DNA from: a virus
Taxonomy: Duplodnaviria > Heunggongvirae > Uroviricota > Caudoviricetes
Virus record (IMG/VR): IMGVR_UViG_2778261541_000006
Location: 1-60,273 of that record
Direction: 5' to 3' (one strand)
Length of the DNA: 60,273 bases
In this document: positions 57,299-59,989 of the stretch, in pieces
Layout: every line of letters starts with the position of its first letter
Numbering within the stretch: position 1 is the first letter of the stretch
Made by a program: the position numbers and the translations under genes
The notes under the pieces: model-generated
The model's database searches: none
Told to the model about the DNA's origin: nothing
Seen by the model: only the letters and a program-made list of their open reading frames with translations

Positions 57299-57374
57299 TG
57301 GTGGCCCCTACCGGACTTGAACCGGTGACCGTGCGATTATGAGTCGCCAGCTCTAACCACTGAGCTAAAGGGCC
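57299..57374 (-). tRNA. tRNA with CAU anticodon, tRNA-Ile2 (lysidine)-like
   Basis: Minus-strand 76-nt cloverleaf GGCCCTT...CTCATAA...TTCAAGT...AGGGGCC-A-CCA; closely resembles E. coli ileX as I recall it. Confidence 0.8.
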
Positions 57375-57401
57375 GGATTACTGCCAATTTTGCTTACGCT
57401 T

Positions 57402-58229
57402 TTATTTCACCGGAACAAACGGAACAGCGGTATTACTGGTCATATACTGCGGTAATGTACCGTTCCATTTGTTGATCGCTTCCAACTCCATAACACCGGG
57501 GTTCTGGCGCAGAGCTTCACCACGTAAACGAATGGCATCAGCTTCGGCCTGGGCTTTTGTGCGAATAGCATCAGCCTGTCCGGCAGCTTCCGCGCGCAGC
57601 ATGTTGGCCTCTGCTTCACGTTGTTTGACCTCTTGCTCGCGTTGCAGGGTTTTTTGGTTTGCCGTGACTTTGGCGTTAATACTGTCAATAACTGTTGGCG
57701 GGTATTCTGGCTTACCTACATAAGAGAGGCTCATCACCTGAATGCCGATTGGCGTCATTTCTTCCTGAATGTCTTTAAGGGCTGCATCAAGCAATTCAGA
57801 TTTGCCACCGTCGATAAATTTGTCGGTGGTCATTTTGCTGGCTAACCGGTTCAGAGCATCTGCAACCTTCTGGCGTAGATCGGTATCAGTAATATCATCT
57901 ACACCTTTGCGATAGGTCTGAAATACCGTTGTGACTTTTGCTGGATCAACCTTGTAGGCTACGCCGATGTGGTAACCAATGGTTGTTCCGTCGCTCATCT
58001 GGAAGCTGAACGGCTCATCGTATGTCTTCATTTGCTTAAAGGTCGGGAAGATATAAACTTCAGTATTCAAGCCTGTCCAGTAGCGACCAACGCCAACTAC
58101 TTCACCGATACCTTTATCATCCCCCAGCTTATTTACTTTGATCCCTACGTTACCTGGCTCTACCCGATCGCATCCGGTCAGACATAAAGAACCCAAAATA
58201 ATCGCTGCACTAATCAACGTTTTTTTCAT
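57402..58229 (-). CDS. plp: SPFH/band-7 lipoprotein Plp
   Basis: 275-aa ORF with lipoprotein signal (LISAAIILGSLCLTGC) and SPFH-like coiled-coil C-terminus. Confidence 0.65.
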   Translation of the reverse strand: MKKTLISAAIILGSLCLTGCDRVEPGNVGIKVNKLGDDKGIGEVVGVGRYWTGLNTEVYIFPTFKQMKTYDEPFSFQMSDGTTIGYHIGVAYKVDPAKVTTVFQTYRKGVDDITDTDLRQKVADALNRLASKMTTDKFIDGGKSELLDAALKDIQEEMTPIGIQVMSLSYVGKPEYPPTVIDSINAKVTANQKTLQREQEVKQREAEANMLRAEAAGQADAIRTKAQAEADAIRLRGEALRQNPGVMELEAINKWNGTLPQYMTSNTAVPFVPVK

Positions 58230-58446
58230 TAATTAATTTCCTGGTTTTTTCACGAAAAAAGACTACTGCGAAAGCCGGGTAAATGAGCGCGAGAAGGACT
58301 CCCAACAATACAAGTATTGTGCTGTTAGATGAGATCATATTTGGCAAAAGCCAAACATACAGAACCAGTGACACAATCAAACAGAGGACGGCATAAATAT
58401 ATAACCGCACCCATAGCGTTCGACATTTGTTCGGATTGTTCTGCAT
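58210..58446 (-). CDS. upl: small membrane protein upstream of plp (Upl)
   Basis: 78-aa ORF with two hydrophobic helices, overlapping plp start. Confidence 0.4.
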   Translation of the reverse strand: MQNNPNKCRTLWVRLYIYAVLCLIVSLVLYVWLLPNMISSNSTILVLLGVLLALIYPAFAVVFFREKTRKLINEKNVD

Positions 58447-59099
58447 CCTCTCACTCCATTATTTAACGAATAAAAAAACTGCGGTGCCGGGTGCCTCCCG
58501 GTGTCCTTTGGCTGGTTATCCACCGTGGACGGGGAAACAAGGAGAAATGAATGGACTGATATAACCATTTCCCCGCGTGCGCTTAGCCGCATTCACCGCA
58601 ACGGAAAGAGCATTCTTGGTGGACCTGTAGATTGGGATATGAACCCGTTACAGGAGAATGCTCTTACCTGTTACGTGCTCCGTTTCGTGGAGCTAACGGC
58701 GGGTGATCGGGCCGCACCAGGCTGGACTTATTTCAGCGTTATGCTCATGCCAGAGAATCAAACTGTGATGGTCGGTGCTGAACTCCGACACAGGGTTGTA
58801 GCAAGCCCCGCAAAGCGCGCACTACTGTAGTTGCGGCACATCAGCCTGTGCATTCACCACAATGTTGAGAACACTGGTTGTCACGCTGCAACGCAACATT
58901 TATTCATAGATTGGGATATGACCCCGTTACGCCAGTGTTCTCAACGTTGTAGTGCCGGTTACGGTTCCGGCCAGGCCTCTTCCTCAACGGGTTGTTCTCC
59001 ATACGGACTACCGTTTATTGGTCGTTCCTGCGGTTTATGTTGTGAAGCCAGATGCTTATCTTCTGGTTGCTTCAAAGAGCTGCACTTCATCACAACGGT

Positions 59100-59170
59100 A
59101 AGGGTACTTCGTAGGGATTCGAACCCTCTGCCAAGCTCGGCGATCTCCGACGTCGCAAAATACCCTTACC
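59100..59170 (-). other. degenerate tRNA-like element
   Basis: 10-bp terminal stem (GGTAAGGGTA / TACCCTTACC) and a T-arm-like AGGGTTCGAATCCCT, but no D-arm, anticodon arm or CCA. Confidence 0.25.
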
Positions 59171-59178
59171 TGTTGTGC

Positions 59179-59254
59179 TGGTGCCGATTAACGGACTCGA
59201 ACCGCTGACATCCTGCTTACAAGGCAGGCGCTCTACCAACTGAGCTAAACCGGC
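59179..59254 (-). tRNA. tRNA-Thr (UGU)
   Basis: Minus-strand 76-nt cloverleaf GCCGGTT-TAGCTCAGTTGGTAGAGC-CCTGC-CTTGTAA-GCAGG-...-GGTTCGAGTCC-...-CCA. Confidence 0.85.
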
Positions 59255-59256
59255 AT

Positions 59257-59332
59257 TGGCGATGGTGGATGGATTTGAACCATCGACCCGTTGATTAACA
59301 GTCAACCGCTCTAACCGCTGAGCTACACCATC
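59257..59332 (-). tRNA. tRNA-Asn (GUU)
   Basis: Minus-strand 76-nt cloverleaf GATGGTG-TAGCTCAGCGGTTAGAGC-GGTTGA-CTGTTAA-TCAAC-...-GGTTCAAATCC-...-G-CCA. Confidence 0.85.
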
Positions 59333-59989
59333 ACTTGCCGGGTACGTCTCCGGCGAGGGCTTCCACCTCCGTATGCTTTTCGGCGCACCGCGCCCTGGCT
59401 GCAATTCGGTAACAGGGGATGCATAACCCTGGCTTCCAGCGTGATTAGCGCTTTCAGCATGACGGGATATACCCGTAAATTCGTGGAACTGTACCCAAAG
59501 TGCTGTTAAGCACCGCTGTTACGCTGAAAAGAAGACGCAACAGGAAAGGACGCTGACCAACAGATGGCCCCTTCTCGTTCATCTGGTTAATCACACCAGC
59601 GCCCTTACCTGTTGTGCCTCCCCGCTCCCTAATACACAGACGGGGACACTCTGCGGTCGATTTTTTGACGGGGGACGACTCATACCCCGTGGCGTCTGGC
59701 TTCTTAGGCCGCTACCATCATCAGATCATCGTTTGCATTTACTTTAATGGTCAGTTTCTAAACCGCCGCAAAGTCGCTAACCATGACGAAAACCCTGAAA
59801 AAAACGCCCACCCGAAGATGGGCAAACTGGAAGCTCGTAACGCACTTCGGTGTTGCCACTTAGGCGTATGGTCAACCTGGCAACTCGGCGTCATGAGGGG
59901 GAAGGAGTCACTACCCCGCCATACTTGCCGCCGCGCCTGTCGCGGCTAACAGCTAAATCGCTCTATAAATCACGATTCATTGAGGCGAT

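What the first reader, a model, noticed from the sequence alone, without database searches (positions are those of the whole stretch)
57299..59620. tRNA cluster with a degenerate tRNA-like element and a repeated 3'-flank motif
Seen in sequence: three intact minus-strand tRNAs (CAU Ile2-like, Thr-UGU, Asn-GUU) plus, at about 59100-59170, an element with a 10-bp terminal stem and a tRNA T-arm-like AGGGTTCGAATCCCT but no recognisable D or anticodon arm and no CCA. The 16-mer CCCTTACCTGTTGTGC occurs at 59163-59178 (abutting tRNA-Thr) and again at 59603-59618. Established: P1 encodes a small tRNA set. Inference: the degenerate element may be a decayed tRNA or a tRNA-like processing signal, and the repeated 16-mer may mark RNA processing sites or a recombination scar.
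Basis: partly seen in the sequence, partly recalled or inferred. Interest (0 to 1): 0.4.

Follow-up and report, generated by a model that had tools for sequence, protein, structure and literature searches.

The report
Lambda-type RNA hairpins flanking P1 tRNAs
The supposed decayed tRNA next to phage P1's tRNA genes is one of four copies of a conserved RNA hairpin, also found just after the late terminator of phage lambda and in many other enterobacterial phages, whose stem is constant, whose tip is highly variable, and which most likely marks sites where long transcripts are cut.

Summary
There are three minus-strand tRNAs (CAU/Ile2-like, Thr-UGU, Asn-GUU), no fourth tRNA by ARAGORN or Rfam, a T-arm-like 15-mer, and two exact copies of the 16-mer (the second at 59602-59617, one base off).

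The interpretation needs changing. The 16-mer is the 5' arm of a long hairpin. The "degenerate tRNA" (H2, 59083-59180) is one of four paralogous hairpins (H1-H4) in the leader of the P1 ban operon.

A covariance model built only from non-P1 phages finds exactly these four in the 60-kb window (34-67 bits). The same family sits immediately 3' of tR' in lambda and in prophages across Enterobacterales. No Rfam family covers it.

The roughly 20-bp bulged stem is conserved and covaries. It has 109 G.U against 4 A.C pairs, so it is RNA on the operon-sense strand. The 25-55-nt tip falls into at least 26 unrelated classes. The T-arm-like piece belongs to one such tip.

Half of the family members directly follow an intrinsic terminator. 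Others follow a small hairpin, or a tRNA's CCA end as H2 does.

Best explanation: portable double-stranded RNA processing stems, probably cut by RNase III, whose conserved arms also serve as recombination junctions. The cleavage is inferred, not shown.

The parts
59083..59180 (-). It starts 1 nt after the CCA of tRNA-Thr. The conserved basal stem is 59172-59177/59091-59096 + bulged A + 59156-59170/59097-59111, with a variable tip ('payload A').
   Evidence: Model R1, built from non-P1 phages: 52.1 bits, E about 1e-12. Fold -42.7 kcal/mol, z = -5.8. The stem persists in the fold of the whole leader.
59113..59127 (-). T-arm-like AGGG-UUCGAAU-CCCU inside the H2 tip.
   Evidence: 14/14 identical to the T-arm of a phage tRNA-Arg, with no similarity beyond that.
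59140..59156 (-). Small hairpin GCGAC-GUCGGAG-AUCGC inside the H2 tip. It has a 7-nt loop that looks like an anticodon loop. The loop sequence is conserved in BUCT554 and in IMG/VR copies.
59163..59178 (+). 16-mer copy 1. It is the 5' arm of H2 read on the + strand.
59602..59617 (+). 16-mer copy 2. It is the 5' arm of H1 read on the + strand.
59528..59619 (-). Hairpin H1, upstream of tRNA-Asn.
   Evidence: R1 33.8 bits, E about 2e-7. Fold -48.8 kcal/mol, z = -5.3, against -33.6 on the + strand. D6 shows a compensatory C-G to U-A change.
58850..58954 (-). Hairpin H3, a diverged paralog with arms CACUACAACGUUGAGAACACUGG / CCAGUGUUCUCAACAUUGUGGUG.
   Evidence: R1 35.8 bits, E about 5e-8. Inverted repeat I1 of 23 nt, 91% complementary. 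Fold -49.6 kcal/mol, z = -5.7.
58589..58678 (-). Hairpin H4, closest to the family consensus. Its tip holds GGGUUCAUAUCCC (58634-58646), which is also present in H3.
   Evidence: R1 67.2 bits, E about 4e-17. Fold -37.4 kcal/mol, z = -3.7.
59257..59332 (-). tRNA-Asn (GUU).
59179..59254 (-). tRNA-Thr (UGU).
57299..57374 (-). tRNA with anticodon CAU (Ile2-like, by the P1 annotation).
58677..58693 (-). Small hairpin GCUCC-ACGAAAC-GGAGC that precedes H4. At the same position other phages have small hairpins of different sequence.
58955..58970 (-). Small hairpin CCGG-AACCGUAA-CCGG that precedes H3. It is also present before the hairpin in phiNP, with a similar sequence in Sasha.
58480..58600 (-). 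STnc100-like leader element just 3' of H4 and upstream of the first protein gene.
   Evidence: Rfam RF02076: 37.8 bits, below the gathering score of 47. 43 bits in P7. The same element lies upstream of dicB in Qin.
59798..59889 (-). DicF-like region ending in an intrinsic terminator (59798-59824), downstream of Pban.
   Evidence: P1 annotation transferred by offset. Terminator scan.
60001..60017 (-). C1 operator of Pban (ATTGCTCTAATAAATTT). It places the whole region in the minus-strand ban transcription unit.

Best explanation
Shown. The region is the non-coding leader of the P1 ban operon, transcribed on the minus strand from the C1-controlled promoter Pban. It carries four copies (H1-H4) of a conserved RNA hairpin module. 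The module has a basal stem of about 20 bp (5' arm CAYAAC-A-GGUAAGRGCAUUG, 3' arm CAGUGCUCUUWCC-GUUGUG) with one nearly invariant bulged A. On top sits an interchangeable tip of 25-55 nt or more. Its T-arm-like hairpin is part of one particular tip, not of a tRNA.

Inferred. The module acts at the RNA level as a portable processing stem. It is placed directly 3' of stable RNA ends: intrinsic terminators that are read through, small hairpins and tRNA CCA ends. A double-strand-specific nuclease, most likely host RNase III, cuts the stem. That would free the upstream RNA (here the tRNA-Asn/Thr precursor) from the downstream message (tciA or SPFH gene, tRNA-Ile, ban) and create new ends.

Shown for recombination, inferred for any selective value. 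At the DNA level the conserved arms are the points where modules (tRNAs, small RNAs, tips, small genes) are swapped between phages by homologous recombination.
For: Family membership. A covariance model built from 29 hairpins of non-P1 phages hits the window only at H4, H2, H3 and H1, all on the minus strand (67.2, 52.1, 35.8 and 33.8 bits). The next hit scores 12 bits. The model also hits lambda, Sasha, BUCT554, phiNP, P1, P7, D6, RCS47, Ro157c2 and the Qin prophage.

Lambda. A family member is 100% identical to lambda 44720-44940, with the hairpin directly after tR'.

RNA structure and strand. Among 60 distinct arm pairs there are 993 Watson-Crick, 109 G.U and only 4 A.C cells. 95% of cells are paired. 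6 pairs and 44 cells show changes on both sides, and 0 of 500 shuffles reach the observed value for four of five measures. The minus strand folds better than the plus strand (H2 -42.7 against -36.4; H1 -48.8 against -33.6). Stem changes between relatives are compensatory: GGGUA/UACCC in P1 against GAGCA/UGCUC in Ro157c2.

Orientation. 94 of 101 hairpins have the orientation of the next downstream ORF. All 28 tRNAs lying within 1 kb are on the same strand as the hairpin.

Placement. 61 of 120 hairpins directly follow a terminator-like hairpin with a T-run, 45 follow a small stable hairpin, and 3 follow a tRNA CCA end. H2 starts 1 nt after the CCA of tRNA-Thr.

Module swapping. 118 instances fall into 33 upstream, 26 tip and 39 downstream classes, in 65 combinations. 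RCS47 has two hairpins where P1 or P7 has one. L057 fuses the H2 5' arm to the H4 tip.

RNase III. The stem is about two helical turns of duplex RNA, the usual size of an E. coli RNase III substrate (established knowledge). Daniels et al. 1988, Virology 167:568 (PMID 2849240, cited in PMC7547250), reports RNase III processing sites in the lambda late transcript. This hairpin is the longest duplex in that leader apart from tR' itself.
Against: No cleavage data for P1 were available. I could not read Daniels et al. 1988, so the claim that the lambda sites lie in this hairpin is an inference from the title and from the structure of the leader.

The stem is about 90% identical in sequence across unrelated phages, and the bulged A is kept in 59 of 60. 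That is more sequence constraint than RNase III is known to need. It suggests another sequence-specific partner, or homogenisation by recombination.

If only the stem mattered, tips might be expected to shrink to short loops. Instead many tips are themselves conserved, for example tip A in P1, D6, BUCT554 and IMG/VR contigs.

Most family members (93 of 121) have no tRNA within 1 kb, so the module is not specific to tRNAs.
Confidence: 0.5

Rival explanations
1. Decayed tRNA. H2 would be a pseudogene of a fourth tRNA that lost its D arm, anticodon arm and CCA.
For: A canonical T-arm, GGGUUCGAAUCCC, is present, and it is 14/14 identical to a phage tRNA-Arg T-arm. A hairpin with a 7-nt loop resembles an anticodon arm. 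H2 abuts real tRNAs. Relatives carry extra tRNAs in this leader: Tyr, Ser-UGA and Arg-UCU.
Against: ARAGORN finds no tRNA here and no Rfam tRNA match appears even at E<=10. Similarity to any tRNA stops at the T-arm. The 'acceptor stem' is the conserved arm pair of a family found in lambda and elsewhere with entirely different tips. P7 and Ro157c2 have a tip without a T-arm in the same stem. Tip A is conserved, loops included, in the unrelated phage BUCT554, which does not fit neutral decay.
Confidence: 0.07
2. Scaffold for small RNAs. The conserved stem would be a precursor platform, and the variable tip would be the functional product. After excision the tip would act in trans as an antisense RNA, a sponge or a decoy. 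T-arm-bearing tips such as A could mimic tRNA towards host enzymes or tRNA-targeting defence nucleases.
For: There are at least 26 unrelated tip classes on one constant scaffold. Individual tips are conserved across phages, loop sequences included. Several independent tips carry T-loop-like hairpins: A, C (GUAGAG-UUCGACU-CUCUAC), H3/H4, and two in phiNP. Prophage regions downstream of PR' are known to encode anti-sRNAs such as AgvB (PMC4104026). The 5' arm contains CACAACA, the GcvB target consensus named in that paper.
Against: No complementary target of the tip A loops exists in the window. No expression or stability data were available. The match to GcvB (14 of 15 nt) is weak: the window holds 7 matches of that quality, and the arm is sequestered in a stable stem. 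Ro157c2 has lost the T-loop-like hairpin of H4 by a clean deletion.
Confidence: 0.2
3. DNA-level element only. The hairpins would be miniature inverted-repeat transposable elements, or simply homologous 'linker' sequences that promote module exchange, with no function in RNA.
For: The inverted-repeat arms are conserved while the interior varies. Flanks, tips and arms reassort. Deletions and duplications have their ends inside the arms.
Against: Mismatches are strongly strand-asymmetric (109 G.U against 4 A.C), and DNA pairing or transposase binding would not produce that. 94 of 101 copies are co-oriented with transcription. I saw no target-site duplication when reading the flanks. No transposase is associated.
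Confidence: 0.13
4. The region encodes the proteins Upl and Plp on the + strand, as annotated in P1, and the hairpins are incidental.
For: + strand ORFs of 109 and 125 aa are present. They are annotated as upl and plp in P1 and RCS47. An ORF of 103-143 aa is open in most relatives.
Against: Neither ORF has a Pfam family. The Plp ORF starts with TTG, is Cys-rich, runs antisense through H2 and 30 nt into tRNA-Thr, and its C-terminus changes completely with the tip or after an insertion. The ORFs are fragmented or absent in L006 and L057. P7 and D6 annotate no such genes. The motif shared by Upl and Plp (DWDM-PL) is the antisense reading of the repeat in the H3/H4 tips.
Confidence: 0.05

Closest known systems
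Hairpin directly 3' of tR' in the phage lambda late leader (lambda 44,778-44,871). RNase III processing sites in lambda late RNA were reported by Daniels et al. 1988.
   Same: It is the same family by sequence and structure. Model R1 scores it at 73 bits, although lambda-type copies were in the training set. The P1 hairpins H2 and H4 score 52-67 bits against a model built without P1. The arms, the bulged A and the sense orientation in a long operon leader are all the same.
   Different: Lambda has one copy after a terminator. The window has four, interleaved with tRNAs. The tips are unrelated. I could not verify that the published lambda cuts fall in this hairpin.
RNase III processing stems of phage T7 early mRNA and of rRNA operons.
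   Same: They are about 20 bp of duplex RNA with a bulge or internal loop, set between functional units of a polycistronic transcript. In rRNA operons they lie next to tRNAs.
   Different: Those stems show no sequence conservation across unrelated genomes and have no interchangeable tip. Cleavage there is demonstrated; here it is inferred.
Transcribed intergenic repeat hairpins that are cut by ribonucleases: Correia elements of Neisseria (RNase III), and ERIC/YPAL elements of enterobacteria and Yersinia (from my own knowledge).
   Same: They are dispersed inverted-repeat elements that fold in mRNA and act as processing or stability signals.
   Different: Those are mobile elements with target duplications, both orientations and a conserved interior. 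Here the interior is the variable part, the orientation is fixed, and no duplications were seen.
C4 antisense RNA of P1/P7, a tRNA-like RNase P substrate.
   Same: Same phage. It has a long stem enclosing two small hairpins, and a tRNA-like flavour.
   Different: The Rfam C4 model hits only at 25625-25710 and 32128-32215 and not here. H2 has no 3' RCCA and no known target.
STnc100/PasD and AgvB/AsxR prophage small RNAs.
   Same: They occupy the same kind of genomic niche, the non-coding 'moron' regions of temperate enterobacterial phages. An STnc100-like element lies just 3' of H4.
   Different: No Rfam family reaches its gathering score on any of the hairpins. Those RNAs are Hfq-binding sRNAs that end in terminators.

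Membership tests
Canonical tRNA (for element H2) | Cloverleaf detected by tRNA-specific models (ARAGORN, Rfam RF00005) | tested here: not met
   No call at 59083-59180 by ARAGORN, or by Rfam at the gathering score or at E<=10.
Canonical tRNA (for element H2) | T-arm with a UUCRANY loop | tested here: met
   AGGG-UUCGAAU-CCCU at 59113-59127.
Canonical tRNA (for element H2) | 7-bp acceptor stem directly abutting the T-stem, with discriminator and CCA, or a processable 3' end | tested here: not met
   Six nucleotides (ACGAAG) separate the T-stem from the basal stem. The stem has 21 pairs with a bulge, and no CCA follows.
   H4 67.2, H2 52.1, H3 35.8 and H1 33.8 bits. Nothing else in the window scores above 12 bits, apart from the reverse strands of three of these four hairpins (about 23 bits).
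   H2 has GCACAAC-A-GGUAAGGGUA / UACCCUUACC-GUUGUGA.
   All four are on the ban-operon strand. H2 lies 1 nt after the CCA of tRNA-Thr.
RNase III processing site | About 20 bp or more of mostly uninterrupted duplex RNA | tested here: met
   Predicted stems of 19-23 pairs.
RNase III processing site | rnc-dependent staggered cleavage in vivo or in vitro | not testable with these tools
   No RNA end data for P1. The lambda paper (PMID 2849240) is known to me only by its title, through PMC7547250.
Miniature inverted-repeat transposable element | Terminal inverted repeats | tested here: met
Miniature inverted-repeat transposable element | Target-site duplication, either orientation, conserved interior | tested here: not met
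   No duplications were seen on reading the flanks. 94 of 101 copies are co-oriented with transcription. The interior is the variable part.
C4 / IsrK-type phage antisense RNA | Match to the Rfam clan CL00128 models | tested here: not met
   The C4 hits are at 25.6 kb and 32.1 kb only. Nothing is found in 56.8-60.3 kb at E<=10.
STnc100 (RF02076), for 58480-58600 | Score at or above the Rfam gathering score (47 bits) | tested here: not met
   37.8 bits, with a partial match to model positions 31-147. It is a relative, not a certified member.

The most novel reading that the evidence does not exclude
The hairpin would be a conserved display and release platform. Temperate enterobacterial phages, lambda and P1 among them, would use one constant RNase III-type stem to produce a changing repertoire of 25-55-nt RNAs. 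Some of these, like the T-arm tip next to the P1 tRNAs, would mimic parts of tRNA and act as decoys or sponges against host RNAs or tRNA-targeting defences. The shared arms would double as recombination sites that let phages trade these cassettes, and tRNA genes, in the manner of an RNA-level integron.
Probability: 0.12. Interest if true: 0.8.

Novelty: new variant of a known kind. Interest (0 to 1): 0.5.

Why it matters
1. It replaces a puzzling "broken tRNA" with a defined, testable RNA element. It also shows that two textbook phages, lambda and P1, share a non-coding module that no Rfam family covers.

2. It suggests that the P1 genes upl and plp, copied into many annotations, are artefacts of reading structured RNA on the wrong strand.

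3. It gives a concrete handle on how phage tRNAs embedded in long operons are released from their transcripts.

4. It points to how non-coding cassettes (tRNAs, small RNAs, small genes) move between unrelated temperate phages: the junctions fall inside the hairpin arms.

5. If cleavage is confirmed, the stem is a compact, naturally portable processing element that tolerates arbitrary inserts, which could be useful in synthetic operons.

Tried and rejected
- Fourth tRNA: ARAGORN and Rfam, strict and permissive, were negative.
- tRNA origin of the tip: BLAST against 60 distinct phage tRNAs matched only the T-arm.
- Antisense targets of the tip loops in the window: none.
- GcvB mimicry: the H2 3' arm matches GcvB nt 58-72 at 14 of 15 positions, but the window holds 7 matches of that quality, so it is kept only as a note.
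- Integron attC site: the arms do not fit the RYYYAAC / GTTRRRY core sites (consensus from my own knowledge), and no integrase is nearby. Rejected by inspection.
- 24B_1 microRNA-size RNA of Stx phage 24B: its locus (HM208303 45553-45980) shows none of the family's arm motifs on reading the sequence.
- K-12 Qin prophage, searched in the hope of linking to RNase III transcriptome maps: it has only a diverged member upstream of dicF (31 bits), in an operon that is normally repressed. Not pursued.
- Literature: the Lobocka 2004 P1 genome paper, Daniels 1988, and a PMC id that I recalled for the Casjens-Hendrix lambda review (possibly the wrong id) are not held. Searches for P1 ban-operon RNA processing found nothing.
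- Specific link between the hairpins and tRNAs: only 28 of 121 hairpins have a tRNA within 1 kb, so the module is not dedicated to tRNAs.
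Full report
CONTEXT

The window is a P1-like phage. It carries the C4 antisense RNA and the P1 tRNA set. Its best DNA matches are vB_EcoM-813R1, a "Punavirus P1" record and RCS47 at about 98% identity.

By transfer from the P1 annotation, the region 57.3-60.0 kb is the ban operon, transcribed on the minus strand. Its order is:
- the C1 operator and Pban (operator at 60001-60017);
- a DicF-like region ending in an intrinsic terminator (59798-59824);
- tRNA-Asn and tRNA-Thr;
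- about 700 nt that P1 annotates on the opposite strand as upl and plp;
- the first protein genes;
- tRNA-Ile2 (CAU);
- ban.

In this variant the first protein genes are a 78-aa membrane ORF and an SPFH/Band 7 lipoprotein, in place of tciABC.

CHECK OF THE OBSERVATION

The three tRNAs are confirmed. No fourth tRNA is found, even at E<=10. The T-arm-like 15-mer is at 59113-59127.

The 16-mer occurs exactly twice, at 59163-59178 and 59602-59617. With up to 3 mismatches allowed, 0.32 matches are expected by chance.

The "10-bp terminal stem" is really 6 bp + a bulged A + 15 bp. It spans 59091-59177 and starts one nucleotide after the CCA of tRNA-Thr.

WHAT THE 16-MER IS

On the transcribed strand the 16-mer reads GCACAACAGGUAAGGG. 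It is the 5' arm of two long hairpins, H1 (59528-59619) and H2 (59083-59180). Two more diverged copies follow: H3 (58850-58954) and H4 (58589-58678).

All four fold far better than shuffled controls (z from -3.7 to -5.8). For the two tested on both strands, H1 and H2, the minus strand folds better than the plus strand. All four persist when the whole 1.4-kb leader is folded.

RELATIVES WITHIN THE P1 GROUP

I compared P1, P7, D6, RCS47 and Ro157c2 and 80 IMG/VR loci found through Ban.

- The tRNA set varies: Asn-Thr; Asn-Tyr-Thr; Asn-Thr-Ser(UGA); Arg-Tyr-Thr(-Ser).
- The stem that follows tRNA-Thr is kept, but its tip is not.
  - Tip A, with the T-arm, is in the window, P1 and D6.
  - Tip B, unrelated, is in P7 and Ro157c2.
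  - Tip C is in two IMG/VR contigs.
  - RCS47-type phages carry an A hairpin and a B hairpin in tandem.
  - One contig (L057) joins the H2 5' arm to the H4 tip, deleting everything between.
- Stem differences are compensatory: GGGUA/UACCC against GAGCA/UGCUC, with P7 as a G.U intermediate. In H1 of D6 a C-G pair becomes U-A.

THE FAMILY BEYOND P1

Pieces of this leader match non-coding gaps in many unrelated temperate phages. BUCT554 carries a hairpin with tip A. phiNP and Sasha carry hairpins with other tips.

Those stretches hold 47 distinct tips.

One common version is 100% identical to lambda 44720-44940. In lambda the hairpin therefore sits immediately after tR', the terminator of the 6S RNA, in the late leader. 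There it is the longest duplex apart from the terminator itself.

In species-representative genomes the pattern occurs in Enterobacterales. The hits in other phyla are mostly tiny or low-coverage contigs, several about 48.5 kb long, that carry a 71-nt match of the same length as lambda's hairpin. I take them to be lambda contamination.

No Rfam family reaches its gathering score on any hairpin.

FORMAL MEMBERSHIP

I built a covariance model from 29 hairpins of non-P1 phages. In the 60-kb window it finds exactly H4, H2, H3 and H1, all on the minus strand. Their scores are 67.2, 52.1, 35.8 and 33.8 bits, with rough E-values of 4e-17 to 2e-7. The reverse strands of three of these hairpins (H1, H3, H4) score about 23 bits. 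The next unrelated hit scores 12 bits.

The model also finds the expected copies in P1, P7, D6, RCS47, Ro157c2, Sasha, BUCT554 and phiNP. It finds a diverged one upstream of dicF in the Qin prophage of K-12.

RNA OR DNA, AND WHICH STRAND

Among 60 distinct arm pairs collected with relaxed criteria there are 993 Watson-Crick, 109 G.U and 4 A.C cells. An A.C cell would be a G.U pair on the other strand. The asymmetry therefore says that the selected structure is RNA of the strand that reads CACAACAGGUAAG.

95% of cells are paired. Six pairs (44 cells) change on both sides. None of 500 shuffles reaches the observed value for four of the five measures. The bulged A is kept in 59 of 60.

The hairpins share the orientation of the next downstream ORF in 94 of 101 cases. 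They are on the same strand as every tRNA found within 1 kb (28 of 28). These counts include related phages and are not independent events.

WHERE THE MODULE SITS

Of 120 copies:
- 61 directly follow a terminator-like hairpin with a T-run, involving several different terminators;
- 45 follow a small stable hairpin whose sequence differs between phages;
- 3 follow a tRNA CCA end;
- 11 follow none of these.

In a few phages a tRNA starts right after the 3' arm.

Upstream flank, tip and downstream flank reassort. The 118 copies give 33, 26 and 39 classes respectively, in 65 combinations. The commonest tip occurs with 7 upstream and 5 downstream classes. The arms are thus the junctions of module exchange.

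MECHANISM

Shown:
- a conserved, transcribed, sense-strand RNA hairpin family with a constant stem and a variable tip;
- four copies interleaved with the P1 tRNAs;
- recombination junctions that fall in the arms.

Inferred: the stem is a double-stranded RNA processing signal. The reasons are:
- its length of about two helical turns;
- its position directly 3' of RNA ends that must be separated from read-through transcripts (terminator-ended RNAs, tRNAs);
- the 1988 report of RNase III processing sites in lambda late RNA. I know this report only by its title (PMID 2849240, cited in PMC7547250).

Against a pure RNase III reading:
- the stem sequence is more conserved (about 90%) than that enzyme is known to require;
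- many tips are themselves conserved.

I put about 0.9 on the family assignment and about 0.5 on RNase III processing as the function.

THE T-ARM

Tip A resembles tRNA only in its T-arm, which is 14/14 identical to that of a phage tRNA-Arg. It also has a small hairpin with a 7-nt loop.

Several unrelated tips carry T-loop-like hairpins as well: tip C, the H3 and H4 tips, and two hairpins in phiNP. Most tips do not.

Two readings remain open. The T-arm could be a fragment captured from neighbouring tRNA genes, or it could be a functional T-loop. A decayed whole tRNA is not supported.

UPL AND PLP

The + strand ORFs of 109 and 125 aa have no Pfam family.

The Plp ORF starts with TTG. It runs antisense through H2 and into tRNA-Thr, and its C-terminus changes with the tip. 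The ORFs are fragmented or missing in some close relatives. The peptide motif that the two ORFs share is the antisense reading of the repeat in the H3/H4 tips.

They are probably not genes.

VERDICT

The finding is real, but it is not a tRNA relic. It is a new multi-copy instance, with an unusual tRNA-flavoured tip, of a widespread phage RNA hairpin family. The lambda copy has probably been known as an RNase III site since 1988. The family as such, with its constant stem, variable tip and role as a module junction, is absent from Rfam, and my literature searches found no description of it. Interest is moderate.

Noticed in passing
window 59798-59889 (minus), with the operator at 60001-60017: Pban is followed within about 200 nt by a DicF-like region that ends in a strong intrinsic terminator (stem TGCCCATCTTCGGGTGGGCG followed by a run of seven T). 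Transcripts must read through it to reach the tRNAs and ban. The layout parallels lambda's PR' - 6S RNA - tR' - hairpin. No antiterminator for the ban operon is known to me.
   Followed up: partly
window 58480-58600 (minus): An STnc100-like element (Rfam 37.8 bits, gathering score 47) lies between H4 and the first protein gene. The same element precedes tciA in P7 (43 bits) and dicB in the Qin prophage of K-12. It looks like a conserved 5' leader of these small membrane or division-inhibitor genes. Its closing helix uses the GGUG that follows the H4 3' arm.
   Followed up: partly
window 58501-59208 (plus): The ORFs that correspond to the P1 genes upl and plp are probably annotation artefacts. 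They read antisense through H2-H4 and into tRNA-Thr, have no Pfam family, and have C-termini that change with the hairpin tip.
   Followed up: yes
window 57402-58446 (minus): In this P1 variant tciA, tciB and tciC are replaced by a 78-aa membrane ORF and a 275-aa SPFH/Band 7 lipoprotein (Pfam E = 1e-30). The SPFH gene is 86-87% identical in DNA to genes of Stx-converting phages, P88 and phiP27, which are annotated there as 'serine protease' or 'lipoprotein'.
   Followed up: partly
loci L001-L085 (P1-like relatives): The tRNA complement of the ban leader differs between near-identical P1-like phages: Asn-Thr (50 loci), Asn-Tyr-Thr (10), Asn-Thr-Ser(UGA) (7), Arg(UCU)-Tyr-Thr with or without Ser (2), and others. 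The Ser(UGA) tRNA of P7 and D6 scores 46.6 bits against Rfam tRNA-Sec, just under that family's gathering score of 47.
   Followed up: partly
window 59088-59102 (minus) and the 5' arms of H1 and H2: The H2 3' arm CUUACCGUUGUGAUG matches GcvB nt 58-72 (start of the R1 seed) at 14 of 15 positions. The 5' arms contain CACAACA, the GcvB target consensus used by the prophage anti-sRNA AgvB. The window holds 7 matches of this quality to gcvB, so chance is not excluded.
   Followed up: partly
window 59044-59073, 58955-58970, and the segments between the hairpins: The stretches between the hairpins are also shared piecemeal with unrelated phages. GAAGCAACCAGAAGAUAAGCAUCUGGCUUC is shared with Sashavirus and several Klebsiella phages. 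The 59036-58930 segment is shared with Citrobacter phiNP. The 58751-58657 segment is shared with Klebsiella prophages. The whole leader is a mosaic of conserved non-coding modules.
   Followed up: partly
window about 60209-60273: Homology to P1-like phages ends at 60219, inside dmt. The last 55-70 nt (...GTCACGAACGGTGCAATAGTGATCCACACCC...) match 2,166 places in 1,719 plasmid records of Escherichia, Yersinia, Salmonella and Shigella. This is probably the end of an insertion sequence that interrupts dmt.
   Followed up: partly
locus L004 2942-3070 (Ro157c2YLVW): A small gene of about 42 aa is inserted just upstream of H3 in Ro157c2-type phages, and the GGGUUCAUAUCCC hairpin of H4 is cleanly deleted there. 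Both are examples of cassette gain and loss at the hairpins.
   Followed up: no
locus L210 24171-24265 (E. coli K-12, NC_000913.3 1649170-1649264): A diverged member of the hairpin family (31.4 bits) lies between ydfC and dicF in the Qin prophage. That is in the dicB operon, whose RNA is known to be processed by RNase III and RNase E (from my own knowledge).
   Followed up: no
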